From: a virus
Reading direction: 5' to 3' (one strand)
IMG/VR virus record: IMGVR_UViG_3300036791_000264
Coordinates: 1 to 64,000 of that record
Length of the DNA stretch: 64,000 bases
Under the pieces are notes generated by a model. The model was not told the origin of the DNA. It was given only the letters and a program-made list of their open reading frames with translations, and searched no databases. Positions 6,119 to 56,122 of this stretch are shown piece by piece (within the stretch, counting starts at the first letter, position 1; each line of letters opens with the position of its first letter). The position numbers were made by a program, and so were the translations under genes.

Positions 6119-6729
6119 CGGTAGTCCTCGCCCTCCATCACGACCAGGATCGTGGCCTCATGGAGGAAGCTGGACAGTCCTTCGGAGTATCGAACATCGA
6201 TCTTGTCGAGCGGCTGGTTAGTGGTGACGATTGACGGGAGACCACGGTTGTGGCGGAATCGCAGCAGATCGAACACGCGCCCATTAGACCAACCTGACTG
6301 GGACTCGGTCTCGCGACCCAGGTCGTCCAGTAGCAGGAACTTGGCCCGCATCTCGATGTAGCGGATGCGCTCTTCCAGTTCATGGTGTCGGTCTTCCCAC
6401 TTTTCGTAGTACTGGGAGTCCTGTCCAATCCGCTGAAGGCGGGCGTTGAGGTCGAACATCTCTGTATTCAGGGAGATGTACGTGCTGAGTTCGATGCACT
6501 CGTAGCGATAGCCGGCGTCCTCTACCGCATGCAACACGGCGCAGGCCAGGTGGGTCTTGCCCACCCCGTTCGGACCCACGAAGGTGATGCCCATACCCTG
6601 ATCCATCATGGCCTTCAGGTCAGCGGTGTAATCGCGGACGATCCTGACCGCCTCAGTCAGGCTGGGGTTATCGCCAGTCTCAAAGTCATCGAGGGTCTTG
6701 TCCCGATAGTGTGGAAATACTTCTTTCAT
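6100..6729 (-). CDS. DnaC/IstB-like helicase loader ATPase
   Basis: Walker A GPNGVGKTHLA, Walker B LLLDDLGRE, LPSIVTTN, C-terminal GEDYR. Confidence 0.9.
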   Translation of the reverse strand: MKEVFPHYRDKTLDDFETGDNPSLTEAVRIVRDYTADLKAMMDQGMGITFVGPNGVGKTHLACAVLHAVEDAGYRYECIELSTYISLNTEMFDLNARLQRIGQDSQYYEKWEDRHHELEERIRYIEMRAKFLLLDDLGRETESQSGWSNGRVFDLLRFRHNRGLPSIVTTNQPLDKIDVRYSEGLSSFLHEATILVVMEGEDYRCAVEN

Positions 6730-7256
6730 AGTTCCTCTCCTAGGAAGTTACGGTTGCAGGTACGACAGTGATAGCGCTGGCGGTCAGGCAGCACGCTGTT
6801 GGTCTGGCGCCCGTTGCGGGACACGCTGGCCCGTTGATCACAGAAGGGGCAGAGCGGCATCCCATCCTTGGACCGGGAGCGCTTGCGTTGCCCAGCCCGG
6901 TAGTTCTCCCGGAGGGTCTTGGCCGCGAGCCGTGCCTTCCAGTGGCGGCGGTTCCATTCCTGGCGCCAGTCGTAGTAGATCTCCTTGCCCTGGTAAATCC
7001 GCCTGCGAACGTCCTGGGTCAGGCCGGCGAAGGTGCCGTACTCCAGGTTGTCGTAGTTTCCCAGGGTCCACCGGGTGCAGTCCCTGAACACCGGGCAGCG
7101 TACACAGACGGCCTGGCATGCGGCCAGGGCCTCGATGGTGTCATCGAAGTAGATCTCGTTGAGCCTGCCAGTGGGAGTGATGCAGGCCCGCCGGGGGTCG
7201 TTGATGAAGTCCGGATCCAGTTGGCCCCGGACCCAGAGCGGCGTGCGCCGGGTCAT
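6726..7256 (-). CDS. WhiB-family transcription factor with C-terminal zinc ribbon
   Basis: AC...CxxC...C (CVRCPVFRDC) and YGTFAGLT turn of WhiB; C-terminal CPFC...QRYHCRTCNRNF. Confidence 0.8.
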   Translation of the reverse strand: MTRRTPLWVRGQLDPDFINDPRRACITPTGRLNEIYFDDTIEALAACQAVCVRCPVFRDCTRWTLGNYDNLEYGTFAGLTQDVRRRIYQGKEIYYDWRQEWNRRHWKARLAAKTLRENYRAGQRKRSRSKDGMPLCPFCDQRASVSRNGRQTNSVLPDRQRYHCRTCNRNFLGEEL

Positions 7257-49457: not shown

Positions 49458-49654
49458 GTTACGACAAGTACATCGCATGGCGTCGACTGACCAACAATGG
49501 CCGGCGTGGCCGGGACGAGATGTCTCCGGAGTCCCAGGCTGAGTACGACAGTCATGGCTTCCAGGAACTATCGGCCCCTGACTTTGAAGAGGCCAAGCGC
49601 GCCTACGAGGAGGTCACGCGACGTTCTGACCCTGGATCCTCTTCATCCTCTTGA
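49454..49654 (+). CDS. Hypothetical protein
   Basis: GTGA overlap with the previous gene. Confidence 0.5.
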   Translation: MSYDKYIAWRRLTNNGRRGRDEMSPESQAEYDSHGFQELSAPDFEEAKRAYEEVTRRSDPGSSSSS

Positions 49655-50060
49655 CCGGGTCGTCCATGTGCGCCGGGTTCTTGATCTCGGCATCCTTGGT
49701 GACGTGGTAGGCAGCCTTCTGGAAGTTCGCCACCATCCTGACGTAGGACTTGCTCTGCCCCCAGGGTGACTCCGGGTAGTGGGTGGAGCGGTCTAGGTAC
49801 GCCTGTTGAGGCTTGGCCTCCTTGTCAGCCCAGCCGCCCAGGAACCGGTGGGGGCCAGTTAGCCGCTTCCCCTTCTTCTGCTCCGCATACGCCTGGATGT
49901 CCCGCCCGGTGGTGCCACGCAGTGGCTGCTTCTTCTCGCCCTGGAGGTCTGACACCATGTACCCGCTGGTGGGTCGCTCCCCGGTGTGTACGTTGACCGA
50001 GAAGCCGCCCTTGCTGCGTAGCTCACCACTGAGGCCGCTGAACTGACGAGGACTAAGCAC
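49614..50060 (-). CDS. Hypothetical protein with N-terminal LSPRQF tag
   Basis: GGFS...G..PTSGYMVS...FLGGW...YLDRS...QKAAY; GGTGACC (50102) / TAGCCT (50072) promoter, leaderless GTG. Confidence 0.7.
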   Translation of the reverse strand: MLSPRQFSGLSGELRSKGGFSVNVHTGERPTSGYMVSDLQGEKKQPLRGTTGRDIQAYAEQKKGKRLTGPHRFLGGWADKEAKPQQAYLDRSTHYPESPWGQSKSYVRMVANFQKAAYHVTKDAEIKNPAHMDDPVKRMKRIQGQNVA

Positions 50061-50145
50061 ACCCCAAGGCTAGATCTGCCAGCACTGCCCCCCTGGGTCA
50101 CCGAAAACTGAGGGTGTGGGAGGGGGATCTGGGTAGTACCTAGAC

Positions 50146-50349
50146 ATGACTCAGCCTGTCCAGCCCCGCTATCGCTGGACCGTATCGGAGCCGGTGTCTC
50201 TCCTGCTGCGAGTGGTGGCCGTTGCCTGCGTGATTGCCATCCTGCTCGTCGGTTTTATCGTGCTGAGTGACAGCAAGGTGACCGTCGACCGCGTCGCCAC
50301 TGGCTTCATCTCAACTGGTGTACTGGGGGCGATTTTGATCATCATCTAG
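50146..50349 (+). CDS. Small membrane protein (2 TM)
   Basis: Two hydrophobic segments in 67 aa. Confidence 0.55.
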   Translation: MTQPVQPRYRWTVSEPVSLLLRVVAVACVIAILLVGFIVLSDSKVTVDRVATGFISTGVLGAILIII

Positions 50350-50603
50350 TCAGGGATGACGTTCTCCAGCATGCCCAGGCTCGCCTCTAGCTGGAGGCGT
50401 AGCTCTCGTAGCTGATCGAGTTGGTTCTCCCGGTTACCGGCAAGCTGTCGGTACCGGGAGATGCTCGCGCCCATGGTCATGACCGTGGTGTCGATCTCGT
50501 TGACGATCTCTGGCTCCCGCAGGGAGGCTGAGCGGTCTCTGGCCCTCTTCCAGTAGCCAGTGTCACGCCTGTCTCGTCGCCAGATTTTAAGAGCCGACGC
50601 CAC
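50346..50603 (-). CDS. Hypothetical protein
   Basis: 85 aa, helical, overlaps the upstream gene. Confidence 0.55.
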   Translation of the reverse strand: MASALKIWRRDRRDTGYWKRARDRSASLREPEIVNEIDTTVMTMGASISRYRQLAGNRENQLDQLRELRLQLEASLGMLENVIPD

Positions 50604-51450
50604 TGGCCTTGTTGCCCACCCTCACCAGGCGCCGCCTGGGAAGCTCAGTGACGGTAGCTATGGGTTCGTGCTGGCTGCTCCTGCCAGCACCGGCAGCTAC
50701 GAGCTTCCGTACTCGCTTGGCAGGAGTCTTCGGCTTGGCCTGCTCTCGCTCCTTGAGTCGCTTGGCTCGTGCCCTCTCCAGGCTCCGCTGCTTGGCCTTG
50801 TCAGCCGCCCTGGCCTCCTTGGACCCAGGTGGCAACCCGTCCTTCCTGGGGCGCCCACGAGGTCGCACAGACCCCTCTGGTCGGTTCTTGGCGGCTCCAG
50901 GCGGCGGTGTGGAAAATGCTGTCTTGGTGAAGGCGTGTCGAGGACCGAACTTTGTCCGGGATCCAGGGCTGTTGAAGTCCAGGGTGGCCTTGGACTCGGA
51001 CTCCAGGGGGACCGCCGGCAAGACGTACTGAGGGCTGGGCCTGGTCTGCACCACGATCTTGAAGCTGGTGTTAGCCAGGGCCAGGGCGTCCTCGACATGC
51101 ACCGGCAGCCCGTTCGTTGGCCCGGTGTTGAAGATCGAGTCAGCCCACGCCTCGACGTCCTCCTGGGTCTTGATCTGCTTGTTCAGCAGGGCCTTGACCC
51201 GTACCCCTAGCTTCTCTAGCTGGGGGATGGTGTCAGGGAAGGCTTCCAGCAGCTTGACGGCACTCTGTCGCAGCTTGTCGACCCGCTCAGGGTCAGACGA
51301 GTACTCCATGCCAGGCCAGATGACGGCAGTGTTCTTGAACCACGTCCAGGTGTCGTCGTGGAACACCGGGATGTAGCCCACACGCCCCAGCTTGATGGTG
51401 CCATTGAAGCCTGCGATTTTTTGCCAAGCCTCAGTTTCGTTCAACTCCAC
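50587..51450 (-). CDS. Hypothetical protein with AT-hook and basic tail
   Basis: RPRGRPRK and a Lys/Arg-rich C-terminus; start placed at GTG 51450. Confidence 0.65.
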   Translation of the reverse strand: MELNETEAWQKIAGFNGTIKLGRVGYIPVFHDDTWTWFKNTAVIWPGMEYSSDPERVDKLRQSAVKLLEAFPDTIPQLEKLGVRVKALLNKQIKTQEDVEAWADSIFNTGPTNGLPVHVEDALALANTSFKIVVQTRPSPQYVLPAVPLESESKATLDFNSPGSRTKFGPRHAFTKTAFSTPPPGAAKNRPEGSVRPRGRPRKDGLPPGSKEARAADKAKQRSLERARAKRLKEREQAKPKTPAKRVRKLVAAGAGRSSQHEPIATVTELPRRRLVRVGNKASGVGS

Positions 51451-51784
51451 TCTCCAGATCACTAGCTCTAGCAACGGTCTCATGCAAGTTCCGCTCTAGG
51501 GGTGAGTCGCTCAGGATACGCGGAGCCTTCCCACGAATCCAGACGCCTAGCGCGAAGGCATGATGTTTTTTCCGAAGCATAATACCCAGGCCACGCCGCC
51601 AGGGTGGGGTGATCTCTCGGGTGAGGGCTATGGAGAGGCGCCGCTGGTGGGGGTTCGGCTGGCCGCTCCAGGTGTAGAAAATCCACCAGGACTTGGTGTT
51701 GTCAGGAACTGAAGAGGCGTCGGGCAGGCTGGGTAGTACCCAGTCGTTTTCCTCCGGATCTCGGCTGTCGGGGTGGATCTCCAA
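51431..51784 (-). CDS. Hypothetical protein
   Basis: EITPPWRRGLG...ALGVW pattern; start uncertain. Confidence 0.55.
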   Translation of the reverse strand: MEIHPDSRDPEENDWVLPSLPDASSVPDNTKSWWIFYTWSGQPNPHQRRLSIALTREITPPWRRGLGIMLRKKHHAFALGVWIRGKAPRILSDSPLERNLHETVARASDLESGVERN

Positions 51785-51890
51785 GAACCTTTTCGTTCTC
51801 TGCTAGGGCTTCATCGATCTGGGCTAAGAGAGCGTCAATCCGCTCATTCAGCACAGGGGCTTTTTTCGGCGGATCGCACTTTTTCGGCAT
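51702..51890 (-). CDS. Small protein with Pup-like core helix
   Basis: RIDALLAQIDEALAENE versus Pup TDDLLDEIDDVLEENA. Confidence 0.5.
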   Translation of the reverse strand: MPKKCDPPKKAPVLNERIDALLAQIDEALAENEKVLGDPPRQPRSGGKRLGTTQPARRLFSS

Positions 51891-51892
51891 GG

Positions 51893-52375
51893 CTACTCAA
51901 TGCTCCCCCAGCCTCCGCGTCCATACGGGTAAGCGTTCAGGACGGCGTTGATGTACCTCCCAGGACTCTCCACTCGCTTGAAGCGGTTCCAGATCCTGGG
52001 GGGCACATTTTCGTAATGCCAGGGAGTCCCGTCGCGAAAAATAACCTCCAGTTGTTGCCGATTGCGGGAATACCTGGCTTGCAGCGTCCGGGGCCTAGGA
52101 GGGTTGATCGTCCTCGTCGGCCAGTAGTAGTCCCAGGCCGGATCCGGTGTGGGGCCGAATGGGCCTTGTGTGCCGTGTGGCTCCTCGTCGGAAACCAGGG
52201 GGAAATCCTCAGGCCGCACGTACTGGGGGTGCAGCCTGAGCATGGCATTACGGGCGCGCTCCTCCCGTGCCTGGGAGTAGCTGTCGTAACCGCGGGCCTT
52301 CTCCCGTTCGTTGCGTACTGCGAAGTAGCTGATGCCCCTCCGGGTCGCCTCGCCCCGGATGGACTCTCTGGGCAT
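51893..52375 (-). CDS. KTSC domain protein
   Basis: ARYSRNRQQLEVIFRDGTPWHYENVP..IWNRF...SPGRYIN. Confidence 0.8.
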   Translation of the reverse strand: MPRESIRGEATRRGISYFAVRNEREKARGYDSYSQAREERARNAMLRLHPQYVRPEDFPLVSDEEPHGTQGPFGPTPDPAWDYYWPTRTINPPRPRTLQARYSRNRQQLEVIFRDGTPWHYENVPPRIWNRFKRVESPGRYINAVLNAYPYGRGGWGSIE

Positions 52376-52379
52376 GCTG

Positions 52380-52688
52380 CTAAGGGGCGGTCAGGCCAGG
52401 GATGGAGGGTCTCATGACCGGCACCTGTGCCCCAGCCGAGTTCAGCACGAATGCCTTCTGGTCGGTCCAGCCTCCGAAGGGGTCGACGGCATTGATCGTG
52501 ACCCAGTTGCCGGGGCTGGCAAGGCCGGGGTACGGCGGGATCGAGGTGGTCATGTTGATGAGGTCGGGGATCGGCCCCACGCCGGGGAATACAGAGTTCG
52601 GTACATAGGGAGTGCCAGGCGGGTTGGGAGCAGTCGGCATGCTGCCGCCGCCTTGTGCCGTCCAGGCCCTCCAGTCCGCTACGCCCAT
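52380..52688 (-). CDS. Pro-rich hypothetical protein
   Basis: GAAGGA RBS. Confidence 0.55.
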   Translation of the reverse strand: MGVADWRAWTAQGGGSMPTAPNPPGTPYVPNSVFPGVGPIPDLINMTTSIPPYPGLASPGNWVTINAVDPFGGWTDQKAFVLNSAGAQVPVMRPSIPGLTAP

Positions 52689-52689
52689 G

Positions 52690-53031
52690 TCATCCTTCTT
52701 TCACTCGCATCACGGGGGTGCCCTTCATTTGGGCCAGTCTGGCTCGGACGAGGTAGAGATCCTGAAGCACCCCGTCGATGATGTCGATCTGCCGGCCTGG
52801 GTCGGTTTCCTCCACCATCTGGTTCAACTCGCCCAGGACGTTTCTTGTCCGCTGATCCCAGGACAACATCGGCACCTTGGGCTTGACGGCCCGTGCTTGA
52901 TGCTCCTGGTCGAAATGGGCCTGGACGTCGGTCTCGATGGAGGTGTTGCAGAGGTAACACCAGCCCTTGAGTACCTGGGTGTCAGACACGGGATCAAGCC
53001 TAGGTGGTCGGGGTGGCGCGACCTGGGGCAC
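52690..53031 (-). CDS. C2H2-type Zn-finger protein
   Basis: WCYLC...AHFDQEH. Confidence 0.55.
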   Translation of the reverse strand: MPQVAPPRPPRLDPVSDTQVLKGWCYLCNTSIETDVQAHFDQEHQARAVKPKVPMLSWDQRTRNVLGELNQMVEETDPGRQIDIIDGVLQDLYLVRARLAQMKGTPVMRVKEG

Positions 53032-53038
53032 TTAGGCT
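53003..53038 (+). promoter_or_regulatory. GGTG-class promoter for the tagged-effector operon
   Basis: GGTGGTCGGGGTGGCGCG at 53003, TAGGCT at 53033, GTG start 6 nt later. Confidence 0.65.
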
Positions 53039-53044
53039 TGAGGC

Positions 53045-53314
53045 GTGTCCATCCCCTTCTCAACCAAGCAGTTTGAGAAAAAACCCAACCCGAAAATGCC
53101 CCGCACCACGGTGCGTTTAGACAAGCTCGACGCCACCCAGGGCAAGCTCGATCAGAAGAAGGTTCAGAGCATCGCTCAGAGGGGGGCTGACGATGGCACT
53201 GACCCGATAGTGGCCCCGTTCAAGGGCAGGTATCGAGTCCTCGACGGCCACCACCGAGTGGCCGGCGCCATGGAGCGCGGTGACACCAAGATCAAGGTCA
53301 AGAGGGTCAAGTGA
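53045..53314 (+). CDS. Stand-alone ParB/Srx-like domain protein (FSTKQF tag)
   Basis: VRLDKLDATQ...KVQSI...PIV...YRVLDGHHRVAGA...IKVK. Confidence 0.8.
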   Translation: MSIPFSTKQFEKKPNPKMPRTTVRLDKLDATQGKLDQKKVQSIAQRGADDGTDPIVAPFKGRYRVLDGHHRVAGAMERGDTKIKVKRVK

Positions 53315-53517
53315 AGAAGCCGCCCCCAGGCCGCACGCCTAGGGCCACGAACATCTCCAGCTTCTACGACGGCGCCAACGGTTCCCGTCACCCTGGTGAC
53401 TGGCCCACGCTGCTGCGTCGTTCCTGGGAGGAACGCTTCGGCCAGACCCAGCCCTACCCGCACGCGTCCGACAACATCGAGAGCCGCGGCGCCAGAGCCA
53501 GTCAGTACACGAGTTGA
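53311..53517 (+). CDS. Hypothetical protein
   Basis: Overlaps both neighbours by 4 nt. Confidence 0.55.
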   Translation: MKKPPPGRTPRATNISSFYDGANGSRHPGDWPTLLRRSWEERFGQTQPYPHASDNIESRGARASQYTS

Positions 53518-54035
53518 GCGTCGTCCTGGTCGCCATCGAGGGGGTGCTGGGGGAGAGCAGTGTCATCCACGGCTTCTATCCCATCCCGGACGGGGTCAAG
53601 CTGGCCCACGCTCTGCGCTCGGGCTACCGCCTGCACTTCAGCAGTGTCCAGGCCGGCGCGGAGGCGGTTGAACACTGGCTGCTGATCAACGGCATGAGCC
53701 AGCCGGCCTTCTACGAGAACTTGATAGTCAGGGACTCAAGATGGACCGATTTGTCCGATTCCATGCTCAGGGCAGAGCATGCCGCCCACCTGAGGCGCAC
53801 GGGGGTTGACCTGGGCTTGGTCGTGTCCGGAGACCCCGCCACCATCCTCCTGGTGAGCGAAATGGGGGTGCCGGCGCTGCTGTTCACCAACCCCACCTAT
53901 CGCTGGGGTGAGTACCGGCCCGACAAGAAGAGGATGCCCAAGCCCTGGCAGGACATCGATGACGAGATGGTCCGACAGATGGAGCTAAAGGCCGGTGATC
54001 CCCGGCTCAGGGAGTACGAGGGAGAGCAAGTATGA
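53514..54035 (+). CDS. HAD-like protein, degenerate motif I
   Basis: VLVAIEGVL (for hhDxDG); PIPDGVKL..AL; VVSGDP...GVPALLF. Confidence 0.6.
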   Translation: MSVVLVAIEGVLGESSVIHGFYPIPDGVKLAHALRSGYRLHFSSVQAGAEAVEHWLLINGMSQPAFYENLIVRDSRWTDLSDSMLRAEHAAHLRRTGVDLGLVVSGDPATILLVSEMGVPALLFTNPTYRWGEYRPDKKRMPKPWQDIDDEMVRQMELKAGDPRLREYEGEQV

Positions 54036-54268
54036 GCATGGAAGCCCTGTCCAACAAGCAGTTCAACACCGAGAAGTCGATGCTGTCCCAGGGCAACGAG
54101 GACGAGCTTGCCACCAGGGTCCGCGGCATCCAGAACCTGACCTCCAACGTCTTCCGGCCCGCCTTCTCCTCCGACTACACCAAGGTTCACTCGATGCCCT
54201 CTGGCACCCAGTTCGGTGAAAACCGCCAGATGTCAGAGGGCATGGCAGAGGGAGAGGAAGAGGAGTGA
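54032..54268 (+). CDS. Small protein with ALSNKQF tag
   Basis: 78 aa, ATGA overlap with the previous gene. Confidence 0.65.
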   Translation: MSMEALSNKQFNTEKSMLSQGNEDELATRVRGIQNLTSNVFRPAFSSDYTKVHSMPSGTQFGENRQMSEGMAEGEEEE

Positions 54269-54271
54269 GTC

Positions 54272-55252
54272 ATGAGCGCGCTGGAGTCCCTTGGCGCCCA
54301 GTTCCACGGGTTCACGGGCGGGCCTGCTGAGGCCCACGCCATTGTCAACCCGCCACGACAGGATCGTGACCAGGAGTACTCGCTAGAACATGGGTGGCGC
54401 GACAAGCCGAAGGCTGAGCAGGGCAGGCTGTTCTCTCCTGAGTCGGTAGCTCGGCCTGAGGCCCACCAGCAGACTCCAGAGCGGTTCGCTGCTGATCCTC
54501 GGACGTGGTGGCATGGACGTGTCACAAAGGGCGGTCCTCAGGGCCGGCTGGGCGGCAGTGGCGTAGGTCGAGGGGAGGGCTTCCACGCCGGCACAGAGGG
54601 CGCCGCCCGCCAGCGCGTCACTCAGAACATCAAGCGTCGGGGCCTCAAGGAGGGCATGTCCGGTCACATGTATCCTCTGCGGATCACGGGACCGGTAGAG
54701 GGGCCAGAGAACTTGCAGCCCGACGTCAACGTCCATCGGGAGCTTGGTCCGCATCGGTATGGAGCCTGGGGTGGAGCATCCACCGGGGGTCGCTCTACGG
54801 GCTATCTCTACGAGAACAAAGTCGAAGGTGCCGGTTCGATCTCGGTCGGAGTGCCACAACGTAAGGGCTTTATGTCCACTCACCGGGAGATGGTCAAGTC
54901 CGCACAGCAGCGCGGTGAGAAGGTTCACCCCAACATCGCCTGGGCAGCCAAGACGGCCCCGGAACATACCGGGGAGAAGATCAAGGAGGTGCGTAGATAC
55001 AGCAGCACGCCGCCCCAGGGTCATCAACAGGGACTGCACGAACAGTTCCCTGAAGGCAATCGCATAGTGGATCAGGGTGGAACATACGATCCTCGCCGTA
55101 GGGAAGCCTTCATGGGGTTGCATCCCGAACCCACCAGGACGCACCGGACCAGCTACACCACCGAGTCCGGTCGACAGAAGGGCGTTTACGCCTTCAGTAC
55201 CGATCAGCCCGGTAGCGCTCTGCTGAGTAAGCAGTGGCAGCCAATGTCATGA
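54272..55252 (+). CDS. Putative ADP-ribosyltransferase-fold protein (SLGAQF tag variant)
   Basis: WWHG...GFHAGTEGAA...MYPLRI...YLYENKVEGAGSISVGV, the pattern of ART domains in phage polyvalent proteins. Confidence 0.6.
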   Translation: MSALESLGAQFHGFTGGPAEAHAIVNPPRQDRDQEYSLEHGWRDKPKAEQGRLFSPESVARPEAHQQTPERFAADPRTWWHGRVTKGGPQGRLGGSGVGRGEGFHAGTEGAARQRVTQNIKRRGLKEGMSGHMYPLRITGPVEGPENLQPDVNVHRELGPHRYGAWGGASTGGRSTGYLYENKVEGAGSISVGVPQRKGFMSTHREMVKSAQQRGEKVHPNIAWAAKTAPEHTGEKIKEVRRYSSTPPQGHQQGLHEQFPEGNRIVDQGGTYDPRRREAFMGLHPEPTRTHRTSYTTESGRQKGVYAFSTDQPGSALLSKQWQPMS

Positions 55253-55647
55253 GTCACCGCGCCCTCAACTCGGAGCAGTTCCGGTCCTTCAAGGCTGACC
55301 CCGACGAACCCGGTGGTAGGGGGTACCACACTGTCGAGGTCTGGCATCCCGAACATGTCGGGACTGAGTGGGCACAGGCTCGCCCCCAGGAACGTGACCG
55401 GTACACAGGATCGAGTGCGGATCCTGGGCACCGTCCCATCGGCTCGATCTCATGGCACCACCGGACTGGTGAGATCCTTGGCATGCATGTGGTGCCCGAA
55501 CATCAACGCCAGGGCGTAGCGACGGCTATGCACCGTCACGCCCATGAACTCGCGGCCACGAGTGGCGTCGTTCATCCTGAACACTCCTCCTATCGCACCC
55601 CTGCTGGTGACGCCTGGGCACGTTCGACTGGGGAGCGGCTTCCATGA
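55249..55647 (+). CDS. GNAT acetyltransferase (RALNSEQF tag)
   Basis: MHVVPEHQRQGVATAM acetyl-CoA motif A; HSSYRTPAGDAWA. Start ATG 55249. Confidence 0.8.
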   Translation: MSHRALNSEQFRSFKADPDEPGGRGYHTVEVWHPEHVGTEWAQARPQERDRYTGSSADPGHRPIGSISWHHRTGEILGMHVVPEHQRQGVATAMHRHAHELAATSGVVHPEHSSYRTPAGDAWARSTGERLP

Positions 55648-55994
55648 GCCAGCGCGCCCTAAATAACGAGCAGTTCGGGGACTACACCTTGGAGTACGCC
55701 AAGCCGGATATGTACATCCCTAGGCACCGTATTGTGGCGAGTAAGGAGGGGCAACGGGCCGGGGAGATGACCTGGCATCCCAAGACCCATGCTGTCACTG
55801 GCATCAATGTGGAGGAGGGTGAGCGTCGCCAGGGACTGGCTACGGCCATGTGGAAGATGGGCCAGAACGTGCGCCCTAAGCCGGTGCATTCCGCTGATCG
55901 CACCACCGCTGGGGAAGCCTGGGCCAAGTCGGTGGGAGGACGCTTGCCTCGTCGTAAGCCGGTGCTGGACCCGATCTCCAGGAGGGAAGTGTGA
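55644..55994 (+). CDS. GNAT acetyltransferase (RALNNEQF tag)
   Basis: INVEEGERRQGLATAM; HSADRTTAGEAWA; paralogue of the previous gene. Confidence 0.8.
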   Translation: MSQRALNNEQFGDYTLEYAKPDMYIPRHRIVASKEGQRAGEMTWHPKTHAVTGINVEEGERRQGLATAMWKMGQNVRPKPVHSADRTTAGEAWAKSVGGRLPRRKPVLDPISRREV

Positions 55995-56122
55995 GCCGGC
56001 GCGCCCTGAGTCCGCAGCAGTTCGACCTCATGGTGACCAACGAGCGCGAGGTGGAACAGAAGAGGCGCGAGGATAGGGCTGGGATCCAGTGCCCAGAGGA
56101 CGAGGATAAGGATGAGCGTTGA
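55991..56122 (+). CDS. 43-aa peptide made of the tag plus a charged tail
   Basis: Not in the ORF track. GGAGGG RBS, GTGA overlap: MSRRALSPQQFDLMVTNEREVEQKRREDRAGIQCPEDEDKDER. Confidence 0.65.
   Translation: MSRRALSPQQFDLMVTNEREVEQKRREDRAGIQCPEDEDKDER

What the first reader, a model, noticed from the sequence alone, without database searches (positions are those of the whole stretch)
51702..51890. Candidate Pup mimic lacking the conjugatable C-terminus
Seen: residues 19-32 read DALLAQIDEALAEN, matching the Pup core DDLLDEIDDVLEEN at 8 of 14 positions (D-x-L-L-x-x-I-D-x-x-L-x-E-N) in a 62-aa protein, about the size of Pup. There is no terminal GGE/GGQ; the tail is basic. Established: this Pup segment folds on binding the Mpa/ARC coiled coil and also docks on PafA and Dop in Actinomycetota. 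Inference: a decoy that competes for the Pup-proteasome machinery, protecting phage proteins or disturbing host proteostasis.
Basis: partly seen in the sequence, partly recalled or inferred. Interest (0 to 1): 0.72.

Follow-up and report, generated by a model that had tools for sequence, protein, structure and literature searches.

The report
Phage protein copying Pup's receptor-binding helix
An uncultured phage of actinobacteria carries a small, conserved gene whose helix closely copies the part of the bacterial degradation tag Pup that docks on the proteasome ATPase, but it lacks the ends needed for attachment or destruction; it may therefore block the host's proteasome receptor, which is untested.

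Summary
The ORF is real and as described: 62 aa on the minus strand (51702-51890), DALLAQIDEALAEN at residues 19-32, no GGQ/GGE. Alone, the Pup match is not significant (Pfam Pup E=0.073, below cut-off; IDEAL scores better).

The protein belongs to a family of 11 small proteins (60-79 aa), found only in related uncultured viral or metagenome contigs. The family profile gives a significant match:
- The six best PDB hits are all Pup (E=7e-7); the next hit is at 0.053.
- hhalign against a Pup alignment gives 95.9% probability, with ORF residues 8-36 matching Pup 25-53.
- None of 10,000 shuffled Pups reaches the real score.

Family-invariant residues coincide with Pup's invariant hydrophobic stripe. 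Residues 2-35 are under purifying selection (pN/pS 0.13). The basic tail is not: it is the alternate-frame reading of the overlapping downstream gene.

The phage has two WhiB genes and a portal like that of Streptomyces BRock-like phages, so the host is an actinobacterium. The family lacks Pup's invariant C-terminal module and its long N-terminal threading segment.

Best reading (about 0.45): a non-conjugatable, non-degradable occupant of the ARC/Mpa coiled-coil receptor. Binding is untested. I found no published precedent.

The parts
51702..51890 (-). ORF62: a 62-aa small protein, ATG start 2 nt after the stop of the upstream KTSC gene, TGA stop
   Evidence: Homologues are 84-87% identical with the same length, and more distant ones fall to 33% identity.
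51783..51869 (-). Pup-like segment, residues 8-36, aligned to Mtb Pup 25-53. The predicted helix is residues 10-35.
   Evidence: hhalign probability 95.9%. PDB profile search: top six hits are Pup. AlphaFold2 gives a single helix at 10-35 with block pLDDT 83-92. pN/pS is 0.13 for window versus L002, Fisher p=1.4e-4.
51795..51836 (-). Core motif DALLAQIDEALAEN (residues 19-32), equivalent to Pup 37-50
   Evidence: Family-invariant L22, D26, L29, E31 and near-invariant D19, I25 correspond to Pup L40, D44, L47, E49, D37, I43.
51702..51784 (-). Overlap of the ORF62 tail (residues 36-62) with the start of the next gene in the +1 frame. The overlap is conserved in all five loci at 83-101 nt.
   Evidence: In the ORF62 frame pN/pS is 0.65-2.55 across the ten pairs (eight of ten about 1 or above; 2.55 for window-L002). 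In the gp117 frame it is 0.12-0.91, with 5 synonymous and 2 non-synonymous changes for window versus L002.
51431..51784 (-). gp117: downstream 117-aa gene of unknown function (TTG start here, ATG in L005 and L008), with a conserved acidic N-terminus DPEEN-WVLPSLP
   Evidence: No Pfam or PDB match.
51893..52375 (-). Upstream gene: a 160-aa KTSC-domain protein. Its last codons (GGWGSIE) carry the GGGGGAG Shine-Dalgarno-like run at 51903-51909, 12 nt before the ORF62 ATG.
   Evidence: Pfam KTSC E=2.4e-12. Sequence. Homologues in BRock-like Streptomyces phages.
50587..51483 (-). Next gene in the operon: a 298-aa protein with DUF6424 and an AT-hook-like RGRPRK segment
   Evidence: Pfam DUF6424 E=8.9e-14. 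Conserved in L002, L005, L006 and L008.

Best explanation
ORF62 is a genuine small phage protein. Its functional part is the first ~35 residues: a short basic N-terminus followed by one amphipathic helix. That helix is a truncated copy, by descent or by mimicry, of the central helix of Pup (Mtb residues ~28-53).

Established from the literature: this Pup segment folds onto the N-terminal coiled coil of the proteasomal ATPase Mpa/ARC.

Inferred mechanism: in the infected actinobacterium the protein docks on the ARC/Mpa coiled-coil receptor in the way Pup does. It lacks Pup's invariant C-terminal FVRAYVQKGG[QE] module, so PafA cannot conjugate it. Its N-terminus reaches only 1-13 residues beyond the pore entrance, against about 21 in Pup, so it cannot be threaded and degraded. 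It would therefore sit on the receptor and compete with pupylated substrates, slowing Pup-dependent proteasomal degradation. That could include phage proteins the host has pupylated.

Shown here: gene reality, helix similarity, absence of both Pup ends, and an actinobacterial host. Inferred: binding, competition and the benefit to the phage.
For: - Gene reality. There are 11 family members of 60-79 aa. pN/pS is 0.13 in residues 2-35, Fisher p=1.4e-4. Shine-Dalgarno-like runs precede each start.
- Pup likeness. The six best PDB hits are Pup, E=7e-7. hhalign gives 95.9%. 9 of 11 members hit Pfam Pup below threshold, more than for any other family. 0 of 10,000 shuffles reach the real score.
- Residue-level match. 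Every hydrophobic stripe position of Pup (L32, L39, L40, I43, V46, L47, N50, F54) is matched by L14, L21, L22, I25, A28, L29, N32, L36. The family invariants coincide with Pup residues most perturbed on Mpa binding in in-cell NMR: L39, E42, I43, D44, D45, L47, E49, A51 (PMC3769308).
- Structure. AlphaFold2 gives a single confident helix at 10-35 with disordered ends.
- Literature. Pup 21-51 forms an antiparallel three-stranded coil with Mpa. About 22 N-terminal residues thread through the OB ring and the pore (PMC8755798).
- Host. Two WhiB genes and a portal 53-60% identical to Streptomyces BRock-like phages. The phage encodes no PafA/Dop or 20S subunit of its own.
Against: - No binding evidence of any kind exists; multimer modelling was not available.
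- The similarity covers only 27-29 residues of an amphipathic helix. No member reaches Pfam's Pup gathering score.
- The family helix is less acidic than Pup's (D41 to A, D45 to K, E48 to A in most members), which could alter or abolish receptor contacts.
- The host is unknown, so presence of ARC/Mpa is assumed from kinship.
- The window's own sequence scores better against the IDEAL domain than against Pup.
- The family profile also collects TPR and zinc-finger false positives through summed weak stretches.
- The cultured relative examined (Streptomyces phage Alone3) lacks the gene, and tblastn found no homologue in the cultured-phage collection, so it is dispensable for this type of phage.
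Confidence: 0.45

Rival explanations
1. The helix is a coiled-coil or peptide-binding element with some other partner: a phage protein such as the overlapping gp117 or the KTSC protein, another host coiled coil, or itself. On this reading the likeness to Pup is convergent and functionally irrelevant.
For: The match is short and lies in an amphipathic heptad-like helix. Surface acidic positions differ from Pup. Sub-threshold IDEAL-domain hits occur in 5 of 11 members. Tight operon coupling with gp117 is conserved in all loci.
Against: Among 177,635 PDB sequences, which include many coiled coils, only Pup scores well. The match sharpened as the family grew, from E=9e-5 to E=7e-7. Order-specific similarity is shown by the shuffles.
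Confidence: 0.25
2. [quoted passage not shown]
For: The conserved core corresponds to Pup 38-47. This is the first of the two short helices Pup forms in the enzymes' groove (review PMC8223512; PDB 4bjr listed).
Against: The second helix and the GG[QE] end (Pup 51-64), invariant in Pup, are absent. Only about half of the enzyme-binding element is present.
Confidence: 0.12
3. It is a non-covalent adaptor. The helix docks on ARC/Mpa while another part (basic N-terminus, conserved Cys or tail) holds a host protein, delivering it for degradation.
For: It rests on the same helix evidence as the best explanation. A Cys in the basic N-terminus is conserved in 9 of 11 members. A linear Pup fusion is sufficient for targeting (PMC8755798).
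Against: The tail shows no selection in its own frame. The N-terminus is too short to start threading. No second folded domain is predicted.
Confidence: 0.08
4. It is not an independent protein: either a spurious ORF, or the N-terminal part of a frameshift fusion with gp117.
For: There is an 83-101 nt overlap with gp117 in every locus, and the tail is unconstrained.
Against: Residues 2-35 show purifying selection in the ORF62 frame. gp117 has its own ATG in L005 and L008. The junction has no conserved slippery sequence. A search over all protein lengths found no fused form.
Confidence: 0.05

Closest known systems
Prokaryotic ubiquitin-like protein Pup (Pfam PF05639; PDB 3m9d, 3m91, 7px9)
   Same: Similar size. 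Intrinsically disordered apart from one inducible helix. The helix is aligned without gaps over about 27-29 residues, with the same hydrophobic stripe and the D-x-x-L-x-x-I-D-x-x-L-x-E-N pattern. It occurs in an actinobacterial setting.
   Different: There is no FVRAYVQKGG[QE] C-terminus, so it cannot be deamidated or ligated. The N-terminal segment is much shorter and basic rather than Gly/Asp-rich. It is below Pfam's threshold. It is encoded in a phage operon, not beside dop/prcBA/pafA. Its C-terminus is overprinted by a neighbouring gene.
N-terminally truncated Pup variants used in vitro (Striebel et al. 2010, cited in PMC8755798; paper not held, so this rests on my knowledge and on the citing text)
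   Same: The Mpa-binding helix is kept and the threading segment removed. The N-terminus is described as necessary for engagement in the pore.
   Different: Those are laboratory constructs that keep the C-terminal conjugation end. ORF62 is natural and lacks both ends.
IDEAL domain (Pfam PF08858), from UPF0302/YpiB-type proteins of Bacillota, function unknown
   Same: A short helical motif containing the literal string IDEAL. It is the best single Pfam hit for the window protein (E=7e-4).
   Different: It is below threshold (19.7 bits against 22). Only 5 of 11 family members match, against 9 of 11 for Pup. The other members read IDQAL, IDKAL or IDKVL. The family belongs to a different phylum and offers no functional information.
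Phage-encoded inhibitors of host proteases (general class; mentioned in PMC13696103 citing Holtappels 2023 and Beggs & Bassler 2024)
   Same: A small phage protein proposed to protect phage proteins by blocking a host proteolytic machine.
   Different: No known example targets the Pup-proteasome system. The proposed mode here is mimicry of the degradation tag itself.

Membership tests
Pup (PF05639) | Score above Pfam's gathering threshold (27 bits) | tested here: not met
   The window protein scores 14.4 bits, E=0.073. The best family member reaches E=2.4e-4. 9 of 11 match below threshold.
Pup (PF05639) | Central helix that binds the Mpa/ARC coiled coil (Mtb 21-51), with the conserved L32, L39, L40, I43, D44, L47, E49, N50 | tested here: met
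   hhalign 95.9% over Pup 25-53. PDB profile E=7e-7. Column-by-column correspondence.
Pup (PF05639) | Invariant C-terminal F-V-R-A-Y-V-Q-K-G-G-[QE], ending at the conjugated residue | tested here: not met
   It is absent from all 11 members, whose tails read G-T-T-Q-P...L-S-S or similar. It is invariant in 20 Pups.
Pup (PF05639) | Disordered N-terminal threading segment of about 21 residues before the helix | tested here: not met
   ORF62 residue n corresponds to Pup n+18, so Met1 is about Pup 19. Family members extend 1-13 residues beyond the position of Pup 22. The required length is taken from PMC8755798.
Pup (PF05639) | Gene context with dop, prcB/prcA, pafA, arc/mpa | tested here: not met
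   It sits in a phage operon between a KTSC-domain gene and unknown genes. There is no PF03136 or PF00227 match in the 114.5-kb record.
Pup (PF05639) | Physical binding to Mpa/ARC, PafA or Dop | not testable with these tools
   No complex prediction or experiment is available.
IDEAL domain (PF08858) | Score above the gathering threshold (22 bits) and consistency across the family | tested here: not met
   19.7 bits for the window protein. Only 5 of 11 members match at E<=10.
Phage anti-protease / receptor-decoy proteins (functional class) | Inhibition of a host proteolytic machine by direct binding | not testable with these tools
   Inference only.

The most novel reading that the evidence does not exclude
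A lineage of actinophages carries a Pup-derived 'headless and tailless' decoy. Only the receptor-binding helix of the degradation tag is kept, and its C-terminus is overprinted by the next gene. The decoy plugs the ARC/Mpa substrate receptor during infection. This would be the first direct sign that the Pup-proteasome system and phages are in conflict, and it would be a natural peptide inhibitor of the proteasomal ATPase.
Probability: 0.4. Interest if true: 0.85.

Novelty: new variant of a known kind. Interest (0 to 1): 0.7.

Why it matters
Whether the actinobacterial Pup-proteasome system acts on phages is an open question. [quoted passage not shown]

A conserved phage gene that copies only the receptor-binding helix of Pup gives that question a concrete, cheap test: a 36-residue peptide against Mpa/ARC. 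If it binds, it is a natural inhibitor scaffold for the mycobacterial proteasomal ATPase and a new mode of phage interference, namely mimicry of the degradation tag. It would also be a clear case of a gene end reshaped by overprinting.

Full-text searches of the held library found no report of a phage Pup mimic.

Tried and rejected
- Cultured-phage homologues: none by blastn or tblastn, and the family is absent from Streptomyces phage Alone3.
- Bacterial or prophage copies: a pattern scan of 185,579 species genomes found none. This is limited to one degenerate pattern.
- ESM Atlas: no usable hit.
- Frameshift fusion with gp117: rejected, because there is no conserved slippery site and gp117 has its own ATG starts.
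- The 68-aa ORF at 51480-51686: rejected as a gene, because it is not conserved in L002, where only 40 aa remain.
- gp117 as a homologue of Alone3 gp68: BLASTP found nothing and hhalign gave probability 2.4%, so this is inconclusive.
- Alone3 gp69 region compared with ORF62: no similarity.
- The second genome-contig scan, with the phage WhiB, returned only a Planctomycetota and a Hyphococcus MAG at low identity. It gave no host information.
- Wang 2010 and Striebel 2010 are not held, so crystal contact residues could not be checked directly.
- Promoter and terminator scan: nothing above the shuffles.
- Two long hits of the family profile are TPR and zinc-finger false positives.
- Fold search on a single-helix model was not run, because it would be uninformative.

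Full report
**What is there.** The minus strand of 51702-51890 carries a 62-aa ORF. It starts at an ATG two bases after the stop of the upstream gene and ends at TGA. Residues 19-32 read DALLAQIDEALAEN. That is 8 of 14 identities to Mtb Pup residues 37-50; the Pup sequence I used is identical to PDB chain 7px9_G. There is no GGQ/GGE end and the C-terminal third is basic.

**What the window is.** It is the first 64 kb of a 114.5-kb IMG/VR virus record, 98% complete by CheckV.
- It encodes a portal, tail sheath, baseplate spike and tail lysozyme.
- The portal is 53-60% identical to those of Streptomyces phages BRock, Alone3, LuckySocke, GiJojo and pSt2308.
- The record holds two WhiB-domain genes above Pfam's threshold; this family gave a hit in only one of the 14 control genomes, the actinobacterium Corynebacterium.
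- The host is therefore an actinobacterium, probably soil-dwelling and Streptomyces-like, but it is not identified.
- The phage has no PafA/Dop or proteasome subunit of its own.

**Is the ORF a gene?** Homologues were found in stages.
- One JGI protein at 87% identity.
- Four related viral contigs.
- Five more metagenome proteins from an exhaustive HMM search of 1.84 billion representatives.
- All are 60-79 aa. All share the layout: basic N-terminus (usually with one Cys), helix, and a Pro/Arg-rich tail ending G-T-T-Q-P...L-S-S.
- In the four viral contigs the gene sits in the same place (KTSC-domain gene, this gene, a 114-123-aa gene, a DUF6424 gene) and is single-copy.
- GGAGG-like runs precede each start.

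Nei-Gojobori counts give the following.

| Region | Pair | Result |
|---|---|---|
| ORF62 residues 2-35 | window vs L002 | 9 synonymous, 4 non-synonymous; pN/pS 0.13; Fisher p=1.4e-4 |
| ORF62 residues 36-62 (tail) | all pairs | pN/pS 0.65-2.55, mostly about 1 or above |
| Same nucleotides, +1 frame (downstream gene) | all pairs | pN/pS 0.12-0.91 |

So the gene is real and its selected part is the first ~35 residues. The basic tail is what the acidic N-terminus of the next gene (YEDPEEN-WVLPSLP) reads as in the other frame. The 83-101 nt overlap is conserved in all five loci. A frameshift fusion is unlikely. The downstream gene has its own ATG in two loci, the junction has no conserved slippery site, and no fused form exists in the all-length search.

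**Is the Pup likeness more than chance?**
- For the single sequence, no. Pfam Pup gives E=0.073, and the IDEAL domain scores higher, driven by the literal string IDEAL.
- For the family, yes. A profile of six members put Pup in the top six of 177,635 PDB sequences (E=9e-5).
- With eleven members this sharpened to E=7.3e-7 and 32 bits, with the best non-Pup hit at 0.053.
- Against an alignment of 20 Pups, hhalign gives probability 95.9% and E=5e-9 over 29 columns. ORF62 residues 8-36 align to Pup 25-53.
- Real Pup scores 31.0 bits against the family HMM. Whole-sequence shuffles (5,000) reach at most 16.8 bits and helix-only shuffles (5,000) at most 11.3 bits. Composition therefore does not explain the match.
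- 9 of 11 members hit Pfam Pup below threshold, against 5 of 11 for IDEAL.
- The most Pup-like member (P0004) has 11 of 14 identities in the core.

**Residue-level comparison**.
- The family's invariant L22, D26, L29, E31 and near-invariant D19, I25 fall on Pup L40, D44, L47, E49, D37, I43, which are invariant in Pup too.
- Every hydrophobic stripe position of Pup from L32 to F54 is matched by a hydrophobic or identical residue.
- These are also among the residues most perturbed when Pup binds Mpa in cells: L39, E42, I43, D44, D45, L47, E49, A51 (PMC3769308).
- Surface acidic positions are less well kept: D41 to A, D45 to K, E48 to A in most members.
- AlphaFold2 with the family alignment predicts one confident helix (residues 10-35, block pLDDT 83-92) and disordered ends.

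**What is missing relative to Pup.**
- The C-terminal F-V-R-A-Y-V-Q-K-G-G-[QE], invariant in the 20 Pups, is absent from every member. Deamidation or ligation by Dop/PafA is therefore excluded. Only the first of the two short helices that Pup forms in the enzymes' groove is present (review PMC8223512).
- The N-terminus is short. ORF62 residue n corresponds to Pup n+18, so Met1 is about Pup 19.
- The cryo-EM study of the Mpa-proteasome places Pup residue 22 at the pore entrance. It finds that about 22 residues are needed to cross the OB ring and reach the pore loops (PMC8755798).
- Family members extend only 1-13 residues past that point.

**Most likely mechanism.** The helix docks on the ARC/Mpa coiled-coil receptor as Pup does. 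The protein can be neither conjugated nor threaded, so it would occupy the receptor and compete with pupylated substrates. I put this at about 0.45. The steps that are shown are gene reality, helix likeness, loss of both ends, and the actinobacterial setting. Binding, competition and benefit to the phage are inferred.

**Rivals.**
- A coiled-coil helix with a different partner and a convergent likeness to Pup (0.25).
- An inhibitor of the PafA/Dop groove (0.12).
- A non-covalent adaptor to the proteasome (0.08).
- An artefact or a fusion with gp117 (0.05).

**Comparison with the known.** It works like, and probably derives from, Pup's receptor-binding helix, but it is not a member of the Pup family as defined. 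It fails the Pfam threshold, the C-terminal module, the threading segment and the gene context, and meets only the helix criterion. It is not an IDEAL-domain protein by threshold or by consistency.

Phage inhibitors of host proteases are a known class, but none is known for the Pup-proteasome system. Three full-text searches found no phage Pup mimic. A 2026 review states that a phage versus Pup-proteasome conflict is hypothesised but untested (PMC13696103).

**Side finding.** Scanning viral contigs with the Pup alignment turned up an unrelated 174-kb IMG/VR record with a full-length Pup ending AYVQKGGE. It scores 76 bits on Pfam and lies among small same-strand ORFs, with no PafA/Dop in the record. 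If that record is truly viral, phages touch the Pup system in more than one way.

**Limits.**
- The host is unknown and there is no expression data.
- No complex modelling was possible.
- The primary structural papers on Pup-Mpa contacts are not held.
- An earlier first-stage note on the same stretch (e1-6006502) makes the same suggestion and is not independent evidence.

Noticed in passing
L020:3001-3198 (+), IMGVR_UViG_3300005529_000024, 174,395 bp: This is a 65-aa full-length Pup (Pfam 76 bits against a cut-off of 27), ending AYVQKGGE, so it is conjugatable. Its N-terminus is Lys-rich. It lies among small same-strand unknown ORFs in an unrelated large viral contig, and no PafA/Dop was found in that record. 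I did not verify that the record is viral.
   Followed up: partly
window 51702-51784 (-), and the same place in L002, L005, L006, L008: There is a conserved 83-101 nt out-of-frame overlap between the small gene and the next gene. The basic tail (RRPRGERLGTTQP) is the frame-shifted reading of the neighbour's acidic start (YEDPEENDWVLPSLP). Selection acts on the neighbour's frame.
   Followed up: yes
window 51876-51878 (-), Cys5 of ORF62; alignment A3: A single Cys in the basic N-terminal segment (KKC, QQC or KPC) is kept in 9 of 11 family members (absent from L008 and P0002). Pup has nothing like it. Its role is unexplained.
   Followed up: no
window 6726-7256 (-), and G000 108788-109009 (outside the window): There are two WhiB-domain genes in the phage (35 and 63 bits). 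The one in the window lies in a 176-aa ORF with a long N-terminal extension.
   Followed up: partly
window 50587-51483 (-): This 298-aa protein combines a DUF6424 region with an AT-hook-like RGRPRKDG segment and a Lys/Arg-rich C-terminus. It is conserved in all related contigs and is probably DNA-binding.
   Followed up: no
window 51431-51784 (-) versus Alone3 gp68 (L001:3199-3591): The gene after the KTSC gene in both phages shares a T-x-E-I-x-P-P-[WY]-R ... F-x-L-x-x-G-x-W stretch. BLASTP found nothing and hhalign gave E=0.02 with probability 2.4%. They may be distant orthologues. Alone3 has no Pup-like gene between them.
   Followed up: partly
window 49614-56122: Earlier first-stage notes report a shared N-terminal L-x-x-x-Q-F tag on several unrelated proteins around this operon. 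The 148-aa ORF at 49614-60 does start MLSPRQF. I did not examine this further.
   Followed up: no
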